Shown here: in pieces, positions 29,882 to 35,549 of the stretch
How the letters are laid out: the number at the start of each line of letters is the position of its first letter
Numbering within the stretch: the first letter of the stretch is position 1
Assembly (NCBI RefSeq): GCF_009914755.1
Contig: NC_060936.1
DNA: 64,000 bases
Origin: the human T2T-CHM13v2.0 reference genome, Homo sapiens
Reading direction: 5' to 3' (one strand)
Made by a program: the position numbers and the translations under genes
Notes under the pieces: generated by a model
What the model saw: the letters and a program-made list of their open reading frames with translations, nothing else
Told to the model about the DNA's origin: nothing
The model's database searches: none

Positions 29882-30085
29882 TTCTGAGAACAGATTCTTG
29901 TTTTCCGTCTGATTCAGATGTGAAACTTTTCCCGCAGCCTCCCCTCTCACCCAGTTCCTGTAGGCTGGGTCTCTGCCTCCCCACTCTCTTCTTCCTGCAG
30001 CCAGGCCCCTCCCCAAAGTTCTCTCTGGTCAGTTGCTCAGTTCTACTGGGACCTGGAGGAGGAAGGCAGGGGCCAAAGAGGAAGT
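29882..30085 (+). promoter_or_regulatory. PDE1B: PDE1B2 proximal promoter with STAT5-type GAS site and PU.1/ETS site
   Basis: TTCTGAGAA 29882-29890; AAAGAGGAAGT 30075-30085, ~75 nt upstream of the alternative ATG. Confidence 0.55.
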
Positions 30086-30158
30086 TGTCCCCTCTTGGGG
30101 GCCCTGGGGCTCCCGGGGTCAGGATTTTGATACTCTGAAGCAGGAAACTTTGATTCCC

Positions 30159-30211
30159 ATGGCAAACCCTGTTCCTGTTCAGAGGAGCCACCTCCAGGGC
30201 CCCATTCTCAG
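30159..30211 (+). CDS. PDE1B: PDE1B2 alternative first coding exon; MANPVPVQRSHLQGPILR
   Basis: cccATGG start, AG|gtagg donor in the same phase (2) as the PDE1B1 exon; gives 516 aa; recognised PDE1B2 N-terminus. Confidence 0.92.
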
Positions 30212-30330
30212 GTAGGTGCCAGGGATGAGAAGAGGAAGGGGGAGGAGGGAGAGGACAGGTTGCTCATGGATCCACCAGTTGTAGTTTAGTGAAGTGGAGA
30301 GATCAAGACCTGGCAGTCCCCCATATGTTT

Positions 30331-30362
30331 TGTGCGTGTGTGTGTGTGTGTGTGTGTGCGCG
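30331..30362. repeat. (TG)n microsatellite just downstream of the PDE1B2 donor
   Basis: Direct reading. Confidence 0.95.
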
Positions 30363-30605
30363 TGCCAACTTCACCTTTTACTCTGTCCATCTTGCCCTTT
30401 ACCTTATTCTCCTCCCATTTCCATCCCCCCCCACCTTTTTAAAAATTGCTTCTTCTTGACTATGGTAGGTGACTTATCATTGTTTCTTCCTTTTCTCTCC
30501 TTCCTGACTGCCAACATCCTTAGGACCTCACATTCCTTCGAAATTTCATCTTGTCTTAAGAACCCAAACTGGAAATAGAATTCTTCTCTTGACTCCCATC
30601 CCCTA

Positions 30606-30691
30606 TCTTATTCTAAAGTCCTTCAGAGTTAGAATCTCCCCAGACGCACTCAAAATCTTCACATCACTGTTCTTCTGCAGGAAGTCCTTCT
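30606..30691. repeat. Copy A of local triplication (inverted relative to 31169-31253)
   Basis: Reverse complement matches 31169-31253 with 5 mismatches and 1 gap over 86 nt. Confidence 0.95.
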
Positions 30692-30796
30692 CTGGCTTCC
30701 CTGTCCTAAGCCCCCTACTTATGGTGATCTTTTTGGGAATGTGGGTGCTGGAAGCGGAGGCAGGGGACTTTGGAAATCCCCAGAACACCAGCCATG
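30681..30796 (+). other. PDE1B: Putative 116-nt cassette/alternative exon in PDE1B
   Basis: Acceptor tcactgttcttctgcag|G and donor ATG|gtgagc both near consensus; not a multiple of 3; no transcript evidence available here. Confidence 0.4.
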
Positions 30797-31168
30797 GTGA
30801 GCCAAAGAAATGAACTGTAGAAGCTGGAGAAGCTGAGCTCTTCTGAGGTGTTGGGGTTATAACTGCCAGAGTCTTTTCCTCCCAATGGCTGCCTAGAGCT
30901 AGGAGAGACTGTGGACTTCCAGAAGTTGGGATCTGAGGCTTTTCCAATCGTGCAGGGACTGAAGGTAAAGCAGAAAGAAGTGGTGGTGGTGAAACGGGCA
31001 GGGATGGAGTTCGAAGGAAAGTTGGGGGAAGCTGCCAGTTTTCCTTGGGGCCAGATGTGGACTGGACGGGGTTGAGCATCCTGTTCTACAGGGAAAGGTA
31101 CCTTTACTGTGCCAGATTCCTTGATGGCTGAAACAGAGGGTTTGGATTAAAACTGATGTTGGTGGGAT

Positions 31169-31504
31169 AGAAGGACTTCCTGCAGAAGAACAGTGAGGTG
31201 AGGACTTTGAGTGGTCTGGGGAGATCCTAACTCTAAAGGACTTTAGAATAAGAGAGGGCCCTGGCAGGCCAGAAAGTATGGGGTGTGTGTGTGGAGTGGG
31301 TTATTTGACTTCAGGAGGTTGCAGTTCAGCACCTTCAAGAGGGTGCTTTCAGCTGCTTGAGTCCAGGTCCTCTTCTTAGACTTCCCATTTGTCAAATTTA
31401 TTCTTTAATCTTTTTTCCCCTCCCTCCCTGCCTCCTTCTGGTGTCTGGATTGTGTTTGGTTCAGATTTCAACAGAAGCTATACAAGAGCTCCTGGACAAG
31501 ATCT
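31169..31504. repeat. Copy B (central, opposite orientation) of local triplication
   Basis: Complementary to both 30606-30691 and 32554-32876. Confidence 0.95.
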
Positions 31505-32439
31505 GTAAGTGACAGAAGGAGAAACTCGGAGGGAAACCTGTGCTTGAAGTCAACCTACAACCTTACTCTTCTCAGGCTCACTGTTATTTTTAGAAACCCT
31601 GGCTCAGAAATCTCCATTGTGAGCTCTGGGAGATAGCCTCACACCTGATTAATTTTCCCCTTTCCGTTTTATTTATTTAATGAACTTTTACTGAGCATGT
31701 TCTGTGTGCTCTGAGGATGGAGGCCAAGATAAACAAGCCACTGTCAGCGTCATCAAGACACTCACAGTCTCCTATGGGCCAACCGACAGAATTAATTAAG
31801 GTTGGACCGGCTGAGACTGCAGAAGCTATGGTGGAATGGGTTCCAGCCTCTCTCTAAGCTAACTGCATGATTAGGTTTGTTCTGCCTTAACAGCTTCATT
31901 GTTTGGGGACACGGTTAGGTTCCATTAGCTTGAGTTGTAGGCCTTGACAACCTGACTGAGATGGATGAGTTGTGTGACCTTAGACAAGTCACTTAACCTC
32001 CCTGATAAGGAGTTTGTGAAGATTAAATGAAGTTTGTAATTGTAAAGGAAAGATCATGGCTATTATCTTTCTCCCATTTCCTCTGTTAGGGAGCTTCCTA
32101 ATTACCAGCCTCAATCCAAACCAACTCAGTCTTCTCCATCTGGACTTGGGAGAGAGAAGGTACTTGTATTTGAAGGGAGTGTGGTGTGAGCTGGGTTAGG
32201 ACCACCATGATTTGATGTTGATCAGTCAATTCCTATTCAAATTACATTTTTGGAGACCTTTTGTATGTGCCAGGCCTTTTAATGTATTATATCACTTAAT
32301 CCTCTTATTAATAGCCCTGTGAAATGTTTATTATCATCCTTACCACTTTATAGATGAACAAGTTGAGGCTCTAAGATAAACATTCTCAAAGTTTAGTGTA
32401 TATTAGAATAATCTGGGGTGTTTTTTAAAAATGCAGATT

Positions 32440-32922
32440 GGGTTGCGAACTGTGGCTCACACCTGTAATGCTAACACTTTGGGAGGCCTCAAGCTGAGGA
32501 TTGCTTAAGCCCAGGAGCTTGAGGTTACAGTGAGCTATGATCATGCCACTTCTAGATCTTGTCCAGGAGCTCTTGTATAGCTTCTGTTGAAATCTGTTGA
32601 ACCAAACATGATCCAGACACCAGAAGGAGGTGGGGAGGGAGGGAAAGGAAGATTAAAGAATAAATATGACAAATGAGAAGTCTAAGAAGAGGATCTGGAC
32701 TAAAGTGGCTGAAAGGATCCAGGTGCTGAACTGTACCCTCCTGAAGTCAAATAACACCCCCCACACCCATACTTTCTGGCCTGGCAGGACCTTCTCTTAT
32801 TGTAAAGTCTTTTGGAGTTAAGACCTCCCCAGACCCACTCAAAGTCCTCACCTCACTGTTCTTCTGCAGGAAGTCCAGAGCTATGATCTGGGTGACCTTG
32901 TCTCTTAAAAAAAAAAAAAAAA
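32440..32922 (+). mobile_element. Old Alu monomer split by the copy-C insertion
   Basis: tgtggctcacacctgtaat...gaggttacagtgagctatgatcatgccact [insert] gagctatgatctgggtgac..gtctc + polyA. Confidence 0.85.
32554..32876. repeat. Copy C: ~325-nt inverted duplicate of 31173-31504 inserted inside an Alu monomer
   Basis: Roughly 85-90% identity by eye, with perfect 43-nt and 42-nt ends; Alu sequence stops at ...atgccact and resumes after ...gaagtcc. Confidence 0.95.
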
Positions 32923-32925
32923 GCA

Positions 32926-33236
32926 GGCCGGGTGCAGTGGCTCGTGTCTGTAATCCCAGCACTTTGGGAGGATGAGGTGGGAGGATCACTTGAGGCCAGA
33001 AGTTTGAGAACAACCTGGGCAACATAGCAGGACCTCATCTCTACAAAAAATAAAAAAAAATTAGCCGGGCATGGTAGCACATGCCTGTAGTCCTAGCTAC
33101 TCAGGAGGCTGAGGCAGGAGGACTGATTAAGCCCAGCAGGTGGAGGCAGTTGTGCCAATGCACTCCAGCCTGGGTGACAAAGTGAGATCCTGTCTCAAAG
33201 TAAAAACAAAACAAACAAACAAAAAAAAACAAAAAA
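32926..33236 (+). mobile_element. Alu (AluJ-like)
   Basis: Dimeric Alu with (AAAC)n tail. Confidence 0.93.
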
Positions 33237-35549
33237 GCAGATCCCTGTCCAGCAGATCCCTGGACAGAAATACTGATTCAGCAGCTGTGGAATGAGACCT
33301 AGAATCTATATTTTTTACATGGATCCAAGGTGATTCTGATGCTGGTGGGCTACAGACCACATTTTAAAAAGCACCGATTAAGAGTTAGTGACTTGCTCAA
33401 AGGCTCACAGCAGGAAGTACTAGCTTTGAATCCAGGATTCCTGCCTCCCAGACTGGTGCTGCTGCTGGATACATCTCACCAAAGCTGCCTCCTGAGCCTT
33501 GGTTTCTGCATTGTAAATGGAAATGGCAATTCCTTCCCCGCCTCCCTTCTTCATAGGCCCATTGTGAGGATAAAATGAGATAATGTAGGAGAAAGCACTT
33601 TTAAAAATGTAGAACTGGCAGCATTGTTAGCGATTATGCAAATACATGCAAATGAGTGCCGTGGGTGTGGCTGCTCACTTTGGGAGCCAGTGCTGGGATG
33701 TGGGTTTCAAAAGGTGGGTCGAGAAGGGAACTGGAAGAACTTTGATGATGGGCATTGATCCCTGGGGAAAGTTTTGTAAAAAGGGCCGAATGAAGCAGAA
33801 GGCTGGGGTGGGAATCTGGGGGAGAGAGAGAACTATAGGCAGAAGAAGAGGCCTTCTTTCCTTTTTGGGTTTTATGTCACCAGATTTGAGGGTCCCTGGC
33901 TATGGGGACTGATCGGCAGAGGGAAGCCCCAGCTTGTGCCTGGGCACCAAAGGCAAAGCGTACCTCTTTGTTCTGTGATCTCTGGGCGGGGTACTCTGGG
34001 AGACACTGGCTCATAGCCCCTTTCCAGCTCATTTAGCTGGGAAAGCCTTTTATGATATATCTCGCCTCTATTCCTCCTCCCTAATGAAGCTGGAGCTGGG
34101 GCTGAGCTTTACTAAAATCATCCTCTTACTTGTTAAACAACCTGCTGTTTCCACATGGAGATGGTGCAGCAGGAAGGCTGAAAGTGAGATTTGAGGATAG
34201 CCAACCAAGGAGGCTGCAGTGCCGTCCTCCAACTTCTTTGCCACTTTCCCTTCTGTCCCATTTGCTCTCAGACGTGTCATCCAGGATTGCTAGGCCCTGA
34301 GGTGAGAACTGGCCTGTGATGCTTCCTGGGGCTGGCTATTTTGGGCACCCCATTCCAAAGCTGCCGAGACCCCGGGATTCTAGAGCTACTTCTGTTCAGG
34401 AACGCCATTGTTCTCCCTCCCCCGGCATCCCTGGGAATTGATGCTAATTTCAGCCTCTGATCCCTGACTCATTCTCTTCTCCTCCCTGACTCATAGGGTG
34501 ACCTTGGGTTTTTGAAGCCCCTCTCAGTGGGGAATTATGATGGCCACCATTTCAGCCCCAGATTGGTTTTAGGTGGGTGGGGCAGGGTGAGGGAAAGGAG
34601 AGAAAGGAATATTTAACTGCTTTCATTAAAATCACCATCTGAAGAGCTTTGTTTGCTTTGTGACTGCCTGGGCTGAACTCACCAGGCTTCTAAGAAGTCT
34701 CCCAGTTAATCAACAAACCCCAGAATTCATAAGTGTAAAACATGAGGTGATTGTTCCTTCAGGCAAAACATCCAGTGAATGAGATCCCTGGGCCCACCCC
34801 ACCACTTTTATCCTGGAAGAAGCTTCAGTGGGGACAGAGGCAGGGGATGGGTACAGTAACTCTGTCAGAGGTTCTCTCTGGTGTAAGACTGGAAAGGCAG
34901 GGGTTAACCCGGCTTTGTCCTGGTTGATGGATTCTGGAATCATAATCCATTAGCTTTGCCTGCATGGAGAGAGGCCAGGCGAAAGCATTCAGATTTGTCT
35001 TTGTTCTGTGCTTTTGCCATGCCTGCCAGGCACAGAGGGGCTGTGGACACGTAACCCCCACCCCCCACACCATGACCAAGAGACAATGAAATACTCTTGG
35101 GGGCTATCTTGATTGCTATTGATCCCAAAGCCCTCTCCCATGGGGGAAATAAGCAGTTTCAGCTCTTGGTTATTCAGGCTATGAAACAGATCATCCTAAA
35201 AACATCACTCCAGGGGCTTGTACCTGCCTAATTCTGCTGGGCCCTGGCATTTTAAACAAGACTAAGCACTGACTAAAGAGCGGGTTTCGAGAAGTCAGAT
35301 GGTGGTGGGGATGGTGGAGTCAGGAAAACCTGGCATTAAACTTTGGGTGTAGATAAACTTAATACAGGCAGTGGCAATAGCCTGAGATTAAAAAAGAAAC
35401 ATTAGCTGCTATTATTATTAATGTTAGAATGATTAACTATTTACAAAAGACTGAGGATGTTTCTGTAAAATGTACCTTATTAGGGAGTATGCTGTTCTCA
35501 TGATAAGGTAGCTGTGCCTAAGCAGCCTCTCTGTATCTGCTCCCTGCAG

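What the first reader, a model, noticed from the sequence alone, without database searches (positions are those of the whole stretch)
30606..32876. Three-copy inverted-repeat system that could act as a competing-hairpin splicing switch in PDE1B
Seen: B (31169-31504) is reverse-complementary to A (30606-30691; 5 mismatches and 1 gap in 86 nt, 28-nt perfect run) and to C (32554-32876). A and C use the same left part of B, so A:B and B:C pairing are mutually exclusive. The shared segment on the sense strand reads ...tcactgttcttctgcag|gaagtcc, a near-consensus 3' splice acceptor. In A it opens a putative exon (30681-30796) about 470 nt after the PDE1B2 donor. Inference: A:B (loop ~480 nt, transcribed first) would bury the acceptor region and favour skipping, while the longer B:C duplex (loop ~1050 nt, formed later) would release it. 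Exon use would then depend on elongation rate or dsRNA-binding proteins. I do not recognise the sequence as a transposon.
Basis: partly seen in the sequence, partly recalled or inferred. Interest (0 to 1): 0.8.

Follow-up and report, generated by a model that had tools for sequence, protein, structure and literature searches.

The report
Locus-private inverted duplication in PDE1B intron
Three copies of a stretch of unique PDE1B intron sequence, found nowhere else in the human genome, could fold the pre-mRNA into two mutually exclusive hairpins, but nothing yet shows that this controls splicing.

Summary
A (30601-30691), B (31169-31514, inverted) and C (32544-32876) are homologous. A/B is 92% identical and B/C is 90.6% over 329 ungapped columns. 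A and C both match the same left end of B. A search of the 3.1-Gb genome finds only these three copies, while the same search finds MIR pieces in the spacer, so this is not a dispersed repeat. C interrupts an Alu-like element, with junction microhomology and an 11-nt local duplication. I read the family as local templated duplications of primate age. In silico, A:B forms when only A and B are present (84 of 91 positions). Once C is present, B:C (314 pairs) displaces A, by 16.9 kcal/mol. The shared segment carries strong splice-site mimics: acceptors ranked 5 and 2 of 412, and the top-ranked donor of 275. The putative exon 30681-30796 is well formed and would shift the frame. No listed RefSeq exon starts at 30681 or ends at 30796. 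Substitutions show no bias towards keeping the pairing, and no paper found describes the structure. The switch therefore remains an untested hypothesis. The most likely reading is a neutral by-product that makes a long intronic double-stranded RNA.

The parts
30601..30691 (+). Copy A, 91 nt, same orientation as C. It holds the acceptor mimic ...ttcttctgcag|g, with the putative exon starting at 30681.
   Evidence: 92.3% to inverted B 31169-31258 and 86.6% to C 32795-32876. The acceptor scores 10.3, rank 5 of 412 AG sites in 30240-35549.
31169..31514 (-). Copy B, 346 nt, inverted relative to A and C. It is the partner that both A and C pair with.
   Evidence: It pairs with C at 314 positions in the minimum-energy fold of 30560-32930.
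31169..31258 (-). Left part of B, the segment that A and C compete for. It contains the donor mimic GAG|gtgagg (last exon-side base 31197).
   Evidence: Net duplex energy is -115.4 kcal/mol with A and -117.5 with the right end of C. The donor scores 10.1, rank 1 of 275 GT sites. B has no unique substitution in the 86 shared columns.
32544..32876 (+). Copy C, 333 nt, an inverted copy of B 31173-31514 inserted into an Alu-like element. It holds a second acceptor mimic (exon-side start 32870).
   Evidence: 298 of 329 ungapped columns identical, 4 indels, K2P distance 0.102. The acceptor scores 11.7, rank 2 of 412.
30681..30796 (+). It is not among the listed RefSeq exons.
   Evidence: Acceptor 10.3 (median of 29 real acceptors is 10.3) and donor 9.6 (median of 28 real donors is 7.7). 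It is one of only 2 site pairs this good in 30240-35549. It stays open after the PDE1B2 first exon but shifts the frame, with a stop five codons after the junction codon in exon 35550.
32440..32550 (+). Left part of the Alu-like host of C. The last 7 nt (32544-32550) overlap the start of the homology to B (junction microhomology).
   Evidence: Alignment to six Alus of the window, the three-copy alignment, and the NCBI repeat mask 32447-32554 in the supplied table.
32889..32926 (+). Right part of the Alu-like host (end of the Alu body and the A-rich tail). About 11 nt of Alu body that other Alus carry between the two host parts are missing.
   Evidence: alignment and sequence.
32532..32542 (+). 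First copy of an 11-nt direct repeat (gagctatgatc) at the C insertion site.
   Evidence: Read directly from the sequence. The second copy lies at 32878-32888, one base after the end of C.
32878..32888 (+). Second copy of the 11-nt direct repeat, between C and the resumed Alu sequence.
   Evidence: Read directly from the sequence and the alignment.
30039..30211 (+). Context: the alternative first exon that encodes the PDE1B2 N-terminus. Its donor lies 470 nt before the A acceptor.
   Evidence: The supplied RefSeq table, and the translation MANPVPVQRSHLQGPILR... joined in frame to exon 35550.
31515..32543 (+). Spacer between B and C, the loop of the B:C hairpin. It holds MIR-like fragments, the listed 21-nt exon 31854-31874 and the left host part of C.
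   Evidence: One search gives 11 matches elsewhere in the genome to 31968-32039 and 32264-32377. The exon is from the supplied RefSeq table.

Best explanation
A, B and C are a family private to this locus. They were made by local copying of unique PDE1B intron sequence, not by a transposon.

B, or its ancestor, served as the template. C is an inverted 333-nt copy laid down about 1 kb downstream, inside an Alu-like element that was already there. Its junctions suggest templated break repair or replication template switching: a 7-nt microhomology on the left, and on the right an 11-nt duplicate of nearby sequence with about 11 nt of Alu lost. A is a 91-nt copy of the same end of B, about 480 nt upstream.

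The Alu host and about 10% divergence place the events in the primate lineage.

All three copies lie in the intron shared by PDE1B1 and PDE1B2 pre-mRNAs. The transcript can therefore form an 84-bp A:B helix as soon as B is made, and a B:C helix of about 314 bp once C is made, which displaces A.

I think the most likely outcome is a long intronic double-stranded RNA that is removed with the intron. It would probably be bound or edited by dsRNA-binding proteins such as ADAR. Any effect on splicing would be limited to incidental masking of the strong splice-site mimics the repeat happens to carry.

Shown here: the copies, their uniqueness in the genome, the interrupted Alu, and the folding energies and their order.
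Inferred: the repair mechanism, the age, dsRNA formation in cells, editing, and the lack of regulated function.
For: 1. The copies are unique to this locus. Whole-genome searches with B and with C each return only 3 of 3 candidates, all here, at E up to 10. The A-B spacer has 1 match, itself. The same search finds 11 other matches to MIR-like parts of the B-C spacer, so it can detect old dispersed repeats.
2. A/B/C are the only low-copy repeats of 60 nt or more in the 64-kb window, apart from one Alu-fragment pair.
3. C splits an Alu-like element. The host aligns to six other Alus on both sides of C, and the NCBI mask stops at 32554 and resumes at 32892 (supplied table).
4. The junctions look like repair products. 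32544-32550 matches both the Alu and inverted B. The 11-nt gagctatgatc occurs at 32532-32542 and again at 32878-32888.
5. Neither end of C carries a poly-A of its own.
6. Divergence between B and C is 31 substitutions (22 transitions, 9 transversions) in 329 columns, K2P 0.102.
7. Folding supports the two helices. Net energies are A:B -115.4, left B:right C -117.5, B:C -367.5, and A:C as a control -4.4 kcal/mol. With A and B alone, 84 of 91 A positions pair with B. In the full 2371-nt fold, B:C has 314 pairs and A:B has none. Forcing A:B costs 16.9 kcal/mol.
8. There is no sign of selection for pairing. Only 1 of 6 A-specific and 3 of 6 C-specific changes leave a G:U pair (read from the alignment). 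15 of 22 B/C transitions give G:U (one-sided binomial 0.067, my arithmetic), and 6 of those 15 come from three decayed CpG sites.
9. Rfam finds no RNA family in A, B or C above its gathering score. The only hit touching them is a sub-threshold match in C (19.3 bits against a gathering score of 55, E = 0.28).
Against: - The shared left part of B has 0 unique substitutions against 6 in A and 6 in C. Any clock-like tree of neutral copies predicts otherwise (about 0.008-0.016, my arithmetic, post hoc). This fits some constraint on the segment both partners need.
- All six CpG decays at three paired sites went in the direction that keeps G:U pairs.
- The repeat carries three of the five best-scoring splice-site mimics of the intron, and 30681-30796 is one of only two site pairs this good. 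Masking them could matter.
- Whether C or A is absent from other primates was not tested, because no other primate genome is held.
- The templated-repair mechanism is inferred from one junction.
- An origin through reverse-transcriptase template switching during Alu insertion is not excluded.
Confidence: 0.6

Rival explanations
1. A kinetic switch made of competing hairpins controls a frame-shifting 'poison' exon, 30681-30796. A:B forms first and hides the acceptor. B:C forms later and releases it. Inclusion, and hence PDE1B or PDE1B2 output, would then depend on elongation rate or on dsRNA-binding proteins.
For: - The geometry and the order of folding are as proposed.
- The acceptor lies in a 28-bp perfect stretch of the A:B helix.
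- The site scores equal or exceed the medians of real sites of the window, at ranks 5 of 412 and 4 of 275.
- Inclusion gives a premature stop.
- The left part of B is unchanged while A and C drifted.
- A human precedent exists in ATE1, where R1 and R4 compete for R3 and splicing responds to polymerase speed (PMC7797038, abstract seen).
- A published model makes two selectors for one docking site by duplicating one arm of a stem (PMC6071210, abstract seen).
Against: - No listed RefSeq exon starts at 30681 or ends at 30796 (supplied table).
- The acceptor motif is identical in all three copies, so it came with the source sequence and was not shaped in A.
- Changes in A and C do not preserve pairing: 4 of 12 give G:U.
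- Equilibrium strongly favours B:C, by 16.9 kcal/mol.
- The arms are about 10% diverged copies in a primate-specific context, unlike the conserved elements of known switches.
- The PCCR catalogue paper does not mention PDE1B in its main text or in the 3 supplementary files held. That catalogue covers only conserved regions, so this is weak evidence.
Confidence: 0.08
2. The helices act constitutively rather than as a switch. They keep strong decoy splice sites out of reach of the spliceosome: the donor mimic at 31197 in B, and the acceptor mimics at 32870 in C and 30681 in A. This would protect the 5.3-kb or 17-kb intron from mis-splicing.
For: - The shared segment holds the best-scoring donor-like site of the intron (10.1, rank 1 of 275) and acceptor-like sites ranked 2 and 5 of 412.
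- In every predicted state the B donor mimic is paired, and in the final state the C acceptor mimic is paired too.
Against: - In the final B:C state the A acceptor is released rather than masked.
- The mimics are one sequence read on two strands, so their co-occurrence follows automatically from the duplication.
- No expression data were available.
- The PWM was trained on only 29 and 28 sites, so the scores are rough.
Confidence: 0.1
3. Different origin: either the unit is an unrecognised very-low-copy mobile element, or C was captured from a local antisense RNA by reverse-transcriptase template switching while the Alu-like element was being inserted (a chimeric retrocopy).
For: - C is bracketed by an 11-nt direct repeat (32532-32542 and 32878-32888), which looks like a target-site duplication.
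- The Alu-like host, C included, sits between A-rich...gcag(at) repeats that also flank the neighbouring Alu (family D2). The composite could therefore have arrived as one piece.
Against: - There are only three copies, all within 2.3 kb, in 3.1 Gb.
- The unit has no terminal inverted repeats or poly-A of its own.
- After the second 11-nt copy the Alu does not resume where it stopped, which a plain target-site duplication would require.
- Capture from RNA would need an antisense transcript of the intron and two template switches.
- A source only 1 kb away is what DNA-level template switching predicts.
Confidence: 0.07
4. The copies matter at the DNA level. They would be duplicated cis-regulatory modules next to the PDE1B2 promoter, and RNA pairing would be irrelevant. 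Each carries a CAGGAAGT motif, an ETS-type site (the motif name is recalled from memory).
For: - C overlaps a RefSeq 'enhancer' feature, 32651-33342 (supplied table).
- The motif lies in the 24 columns that are invariant in all three copies.
- A lies about 400-480 nt downstream of the PDE1B2 first exon (supplied table).
Against: - No motif scan or binding data were run. The motif identity is recalled, not tested.
- An invariant run of 24 among 86 columns with 12 variable sites is not unusual (about 0.26, my arithmetic).
- The enhancer feature also covers a full Alu.
Confidence: 0.05

Closest known systems
Competing intronic RNA structures in human ATE1 (R1 and R4 compete for R3). Source: PMC7797038, abstract seen.
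   Same: One element (the left part of B) is complementary to two others (A and the right part of C), so only one helix can form at a time. The outcome could depend on co-transcriptional folding.
   Different: - The ATE1 elements are short, conserved across mammals and flank two mutually exclusive exons. Mutation, compensatory mutation and LNA blocking have proved their role.
- Here the arms are 91-333 nt and about 7-10% diverged, in a primate-age setting.
- There is no exon pair, only one unannotated pseudo-exon, and no experimental support.
Docking-site/selector systems, and the Ivanov-Pervouchine model for their origin by duplicating one arm of a stem-loop. Source: PMC6071210, abstract seen.
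   Same: The architecture matches what that model generates: two direct copies (A, C) that compete for one inverted partner (B), produced by local duplication.
   Different: - In the model, tandem duplication copies an exon together with the arm and yields mutually exclusive exons.
- Here no exon was duplicated.
- The copies are dispersed over 2.3 kb rather than tandem.
- One copy was inserted into an Alu.
Template-switch mutations that create reverse-complement copies and RNA hairpins. Sources: PMC5453318, PMC8794818 / 10.1101/2021.04.15.439925 and PMC10710096, seen only as search listings with abstract starts.
   Same: An inverted copy of nearby sequence creates a hairpin-forming pair de novo within a transcribed region.
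   Different: As I recall, the described events are mostly tens of bases long and close to their source; I did not read these papers. C is 333 nt long, lies about 1 kb from its source, and has a complex junction inside an Alu.
Templated insertions by microhomology-mediated break-induced replication or polymerase-theta end joining. Sources: PMC8421209 and PMC7165422, abstract starts seen.
   Same: There is microhomology at the junction, a copy of nearby sequence at a break, and a short extra local duplicate at the second junction.
   Different: Those studies concern cancer or experimental breaks. Here there is a single fixed germline event of old age, and the pathway cannot be identified from one junction.
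Inverted Alu pairs in introns, known as dsRNA and ADAR substrates and as drivers of exon circularisation (recalled from general knowledge, not checked in any call).
   Same: A long intramolecular duplex forms in an intron from two inverted copies about 1 kb apart. Competition among alternative partners is possible.
   Different: The arms are not a repeat family with a million copies. They have exactly one or two possible partners, so the pairing is specific to this locus. No exon is enclosed in a way that would favour circularisation.

Membership tests
Dispersed transposable element or annotated interspersed repeat | Many copies dispersed through the genome | tested here: not met
   Genome searches with B and C give 3 of 3 candidates, all at this locus, at E up to 10. 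As a positive control, MIR-like spacer pieces give 11 other matches. Caveat stated by the tool: only the best candidates are scored and very common words are skipped.
Dispersed transposable element or annotated interspersed repeat | Element termini: terminal inverted repeats, a poly-A tail, or clean target-site duplications | tested here: inconclusive
   The unit has no poly-A or terminal inverted repeat. An 11-nt direct repeat brackets C, but the Alu does not resume where it stopped.
Templated inverted duplication (template switching, MMBIR or polymerase-theta-type repair) | The inserted sequence is a reverse-complement copy of nearby sequence on the same chromosome | tested here: met
   C is inverted B, 1029 nt away, with 298 of 329 ungapped columns identical.
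Templated inverted duplication (template switching, MMBIR or polymerase-theta-type repair) | The insertion interrupts pre-existing sequence, with microhomology or short local duplicates at the junctions | tested here: met
   The Alu-like host aligns to other Alus on both sides of C. There is a 7-nt overlap at 32544-32550 and an 11-nt duplicate at 32878-32888.
Templated inverted duplication (template switching, MMBIR or polymerase-theta-type repair) | An empty site in outgroup species that lack the copy | not testable with these tools
   No other primate or mammalian genome is held.
Docking-site/selector competing RNA structures (Dscam1, ATE1 type) | Two or more selector sequences complementary to one docking site, so the helices exclude each other | tested here: met
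   A and the right part of C both pair with B 31169-31258, at net -115.4 and -117.5 kcal/mol. The full fold has B:C 314 pairs and A:B 0. This is in silico only.
Docking-site/selector competing RNA structures (Dscam1, ATE1 type) | Each selector is associated with one exon of a cluster of alternative (mutually exclusive) exons | tested here: not met
   The listed RefSeq exons contain no exon cluster here. Only one unannotated pseudo-exon follows A. The acceptor mimic in C is followed by Alu sequence (supplied table).
Docking-site/selector competing RNA structures (Dscam1, ATE1 type) | Pairing kept by selection (conservation or compensatory changes) | tested here: inconclusive
   Within the locus, 4 of 12 polarised changes keep a G:U pair, and no double change is possible because B never changed. 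15 of 22 B/C transitions give G:U, 6 of them from CpG decay. A cross-species test was not possible.
Docking-site/selector competing RNA structures (Dscam1, ATE1 type) | Splicing changes when the helices are disrupted and returns when they are restored | not testable with these tools
   This needs minigenes, antisense oligonucleotides or RNA-seq.
Intronic inverted-repeat dsRNA (ADAR-type substrate) | A long intramolecular duplex within one transcript | tested here: met
   B:C forms 314 pairs within the PDE1B intron, net -367.5 kcal/mol against -14.4 +/- 4.6 for shuffles. This is in silico only.
Intronic inverted-repeat dsRNA (ADAR-type substrate) | Observed A-to-I editing or duplex-mapping reads | not testable with these tools
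   No editing database or duplex data are held. The search 'PDE1B' + 'A-to-I' + 'intron' gave 1 paper, on microRNA editing in adipose tissue (listing only).

The most novel reading that the evidence does not exclude
A primate-specific docking/selector device has been caught early in its evolution. Two local copy events gave one intronic segment (the left part of B) two rival partners. The resulting kinetic competition gates a frame-shifting exon, 30681-30796, just downstream of the macrophage PDE1B2 promoter. PDE1B output would then respond to polymerase speed or to ADAR and other dsRNA-binding proteins. The unchanged left part of B (0 changes against 6 and 6) would be the first trace of selection on the shared partner.
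Probability: 0.07. Interest if true: 0.65.

Novelty: new member of a known kind. Interest (0 to 1): 0.3.

Why it matters
If the ordinary reading holds, this is a clean, datable example of how break repair or template switching creates a long hairpin specific to one locus. The evidence is unusually legible: a copy interrupting an Alu, with its source only 1 kb away. Because the arms have one or two possible partners rather than thousands, the locus suits studies of how a non-Alu intronic dsRNA is handled (editing, sensing, helicases).

If the bold reading holds, it would show a competing-structure splicing device arising by the duplication route proposed in PMC6071210. It would do so in a drug-target gene with a macrophage-specific promoter next to it. 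It would also be directly testable with three deletions and a few oligonucleotides.

Tried and rejected
- **Dispersed repeat:** rejected. There are three matches only, all local. The MIR positive control worked.
- **Known RNA family (miRNA, snoRNA and the like) in A, B or C:** none. Rfam at E up to 1 gives only Alu/SRP-type sub-threshold hits at 32927-33198 and a 19-bit chance-level hit in C.
- **Selection for pairing judged from the kind of mismatch:** no signal beyond CpG decay.
- **CpG-based polarity of B/C differences:** not usable. Neither copy has a CpG left.
- **Gene-conversion tracts as the reason B looks ancestral:** rejected. A-specific and C-specific sites interleave.
- **An exon-like piece in B (31465-31504: pyrimidine tract, cag, gtaagt):** the scores are mediocre, 2.4 and 5.0. 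I dropped it.
- I scored the C acceptor and the B donor at wrong positions (32866 and 31199). One search corrects this (32870 and 31197).
- **Literature on this structure:** nothing relevant. 'PDE1B' + 'inverted repeat' gave 1 unrelated paper. 'PDE1B' + 'RNA secondary structure' + 'splicing' gave 1 unrelated paper. 'PDE1B' + 'cryptic exon' gave 3 papers, listings only and not read. 'PDE1B2' gave 19 papers, of which 10 were listed, none on intron structure judging by title.
Full report
**1. The observation**

| Pair | Orientation | Identity | E-value |
|---|---|---|---|
| B 31173-31514 / C 32876-32544 | inverted | 86.1% of 346 columns, gaps included | 3e-115 |
| B 31169-31258 / A 30691-30601 | inverted | 92.3% of 91 | 4e-32 |
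| A 30606-30687 / C 32795-32876 | direct | 86.6% of 82 | 6e-23 |

- A MAFFT alignment of inverted B with C has 298 identities in 329 ungapped columns (90.6%). It has 22 transitions, 9 transversions and four indels covering 17 columns. The K2P distance is 0.102 and the longest perfect run is 42 nt.
- A and the right end of C match the same 90 nt of B (31169-31258).

**2. It is not a dispersed repeat**

- A search of the window's own 3.1-Gb assembly with B found three candidates, and all three were B, C and A.
- The same search with C at E up to 10 gave the same three.
- The A-B spacer matched only itself.
- The B-C spacer gave 11 further matches on other chromosomes, to window 31968-32039 and 32264-32377. 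I recognise these as MIR-like. That name is recalled from memory; no call tested it.
- This last result works as a positive control: the search can see old, diverged interspersed repeats.
- The tool warns that only the best candidates are scored and that very common words are skipped.
- Within the 64-kb window, the only low-copy repeats of 60 nt or more at E up to 1e-8 are the three A/B/C pairs and one Alu-fragment pair.
- The NCBI mask supplied with the finding covers neither A, B nor C. It does cover 32447-32554 and 32892-33243 on either side of C.

**3. How C arose**

- Aligned to six Alus of the window, 32440-32550 matches the start of an Alu left arm joined to the end of a right arm.
- 32889-32926 matches the last bases of the Alu body and its A-rich tail. 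C lies between the two parts.
- So C entered an Alu-like element that was already there, or arrived together with it.
- At the left junction, 32544-32550 matches the Alu fully and inverted B at 6 of 7 positions. This is microhomology.
- At the right junction, C is followed by one base and then an exact second copy (32878-32888) of the 11 nt at 32532-32542.
- The Alu then resumes, with about 11 nt that other Alus carry missing.
- Neither end of the unit has its own poly-A or terminal inverted repeat.
- These features fit templated repair of a break, or replication template switching onto the opposite strand about 1 kb away.
- That class of event is described in the papers listed, of which I saw only listings and abstract starts.
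- I infer this mechanism; it is not shown.
- A one-step capture by reverse-transcriptase template switching during Alu insertion is not excluded. It would need an antisense RNA and two switches.
- Alu elements are primate-specific (established knowledge). With a recalled neutral rate of about 1-2.2e-9 per site per year, K2P 0.102 corresponds to roughly 23-50 million years. This is a rough figure.
- How A arose cannot be read from its junctions without an outgroup.

**4. Relations among the copies**

- In the 86 ungapped columns shared by all three, A has 6 private substitutions, C has 6 and B has none. B differs only by lacking one base at the single gapped column.
- Any clock-like three-copy history predicts that B carries as many private changes as at least one partner.
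- By my arithmetic, 0 against 6 has a one-sided probability of 0.016. Zero of 12 under a star tree has probability 0.008. Both figures are post hoc.
- Conversion tracts do not explain the pattern, because A-private and C-private sites interleave.
- This is the one result that leans towards constraint on the shared partner. I leave it unexplained.
- Against selection for pairing, only 1 of 6 A-private and 3 of 6 C-private changes leave a G:U pair with B (read).
- Over all of B:C, 15 of 31 mismatches are G:U, that is 15 of 22 transitions (one-sided binomial 0.067, my arithmetic).
- Six of those 15 come from three adjacent dinucleotide differences. These are the signature of ancestral CpGs that decayed to TG on the + strand in both copies.
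- Without those six the split is 9 against 7.

**5. RNA folding**

| Duplex | Net energy (kcal/mol) | Control |
|---|---|---|
| A : left part of B | -115.4 | shuffles of A: -18.3 +/- 4.1 (100) |
| left part of B : right part of C | -117.5 | not shuffled |
| B : C | -367.5 | shuffles of C: -14.4 +/- 4.6 (30) |
| A : right part of C (same orientation) | -4.4 | serves as a control |

Duplex energies are and shuffles.

- The fold of 30590-31270 has a z-score of -8.6, and 0 of 20 shuffles fold as well.
- Folding 30560-31560, where only A and B are present, pairs 84 of 91 A positions with B.
- Folding 30560-32930 gives 314 B:C pairs and no A:B pair.
- Forcing A:B costs 16.9 kcal/mol and still leaves 231 B:C pairs.
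The competition is one-sided at equilibrium, so A:B can only be a transient, kinetic state.
- All of this is in silico. Long-range helices in cells also depend on proteins and helicases.

**6. Splice-site content**

- I built position weight matrices from the 29 acceptors and 28 donors of the selected transcripts annotated in the window. I then scored every AG (412) and GT (275) in 30240-35549. The matrices are small, so the scores are rough.
- The A acceptor (exon start 30681) scores 10.3. That equals the leave-one-out median of real acceptors, and it ranks 5 of 412.
- The same motif in C (32870) scores 11.7 and ranks 2.
- Read on the other strand in B, the segment gives GAG|gtgagg at 31197. 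It scores 10.1 and ranks 1 of 275.
- The donor at 30796 scores 9.6, against a real median of 7.7, and ranks 4.
- Only two acceptor-donor pairs 40-250 nt apart are this good on both sites, and 30681-30796 is one of them.
- Joined to the PDE1B2 first exon, the 116-nt exon stays open but shifts the frame. A stop follows five codons after the junction codon in exon 35550.
- By the usual rule this would make the transcript an NMD target.
- The acceptor motif is identical in all three copies. It came with the source sequence and was not shaped in A.
- No listed RefSeq exon starts at 30681 or ends at 30796. A lies inside a listed exon, 30254-30964, of another transcript (supplied table).

**7. Comparison with what is known**

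- The architecture works like a docking site with two selectors.
- It is what the duplication model of Ivanov and Pervouchine would generate (PMC6071210, abstract).
- The nearest human case is ATE1 (PMC7797038, abstract).
- It fails one defining feature of that family: there is no cluster of alternative exons.
- Two further features, conservation and experimental dependence, could not be tested.
- As a mutational product it belongs with templated inverted duplications. As an RNA it belongs with intronic inverted-repeat dsRNAs, and differs from Alu pairs in having locus-specific partners.
- I found nothing in print on this structure. The PCCR paper has 0 mentions of PDE1B in its main text and in the 3 supplementary files held.
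- The paper reader closed. I did not examine the supplements of the RIC-seq paper or the CAR-SPLASH paper.

**8. Verdict**

- The switch is a coherent but untested idea. One observation leans towards it (B unchanged). Several lean against it: no annotated use, no pairing-preserving bias, one-sided energetics and a young age.
- The best reading is a primate-age local templated duplication that leaves PDE1B pre-mRNA with a long, locus-specific intronic hairpin and a transient alternative.
- It is most probably without regulated function (confidence 0.6).
- Interest is 0.3. It is a good minigene candidate rather than a discovery.

Noticed in passing
window 32427-32438, 32919-32926, 33231-33242: The Alu-like host of C and the full Alu next to it (32927-33240) appear to share one A-rich target site. 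The word ...aaaaa[t/a]gcag(at) recurs before the first element, between the two and after the second (family D2).
   Followed up: partly
window 31968-32039 and 32264-32377: Pieces of the B-C spacer match 11 places on other chromosomes at 74-95% identity. I recognise them as MIR-like, a name recalled from memory. They served as a positive control for the genome search.
   Followed up: partly
B 31451-31452, 31429-31430, 31354-31355 paired with C 32609-32610, 32631-32632, 32706-32707: Three adjacent dinucleotide differences look like ancestral CpGs that decayed to TG on the + (coding) strand in both copies. All six decays are on the same strand. This may reflect transcription-linked mutation asymmetry, or retention of G:U pairs.
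   Followed up: partly
window 31169-31258 (left part of B): This segment has no private substitution, against six each in A and C over the same 86 columns. No clock-like history of neutral copies explains this.
   Followed up: partly
window 31465-31504: A 40-nt stretch in B looks exon-like. It has a long pyrimidine tract and cag before it and gtaagt after it. Its scores are mediocre, acceptor 2.4 and donor 5.0.
   Followed up: partly
window 30075-30086, and 30678-30685, 31175-31182 (inverted), 32867-32874: An aaagaggaagtt word lies in the PDE1B2 first-exon/promoter region, and a caggaagt word lies in each of the three copies. They resemble ETS/PU.1 binding motifs. That reading is recalled from memory; no motif scan was run.
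   Followed up: no
window about 30333-30362: A (GT)n microsatellite lies between the PDE1B2 first exon and A. B carries a shorter GT run at 31283-31295 that is 7 nt shorter in C.
   Followed up: no
window 33062-33113: A sub-threshold Rfam hit to mir-1268 (43.1 bits against a gathering score of 83) lies inside the full Alu, next to SRP-type hits. It looks like Alu-derived similarity, not a gene.
   Followed up: no
window 30254-30964 and 31854-31874: These two listed exons of other PDE1B transcripts appear to be first exons. 30254 has no pyrimidine tract before it and lies 42 nt after the PDE1B2 donor. 31854 is not preceded by AG. The first contains A, and the second lies in the B:C loop (supplied table).
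   Followed up: no
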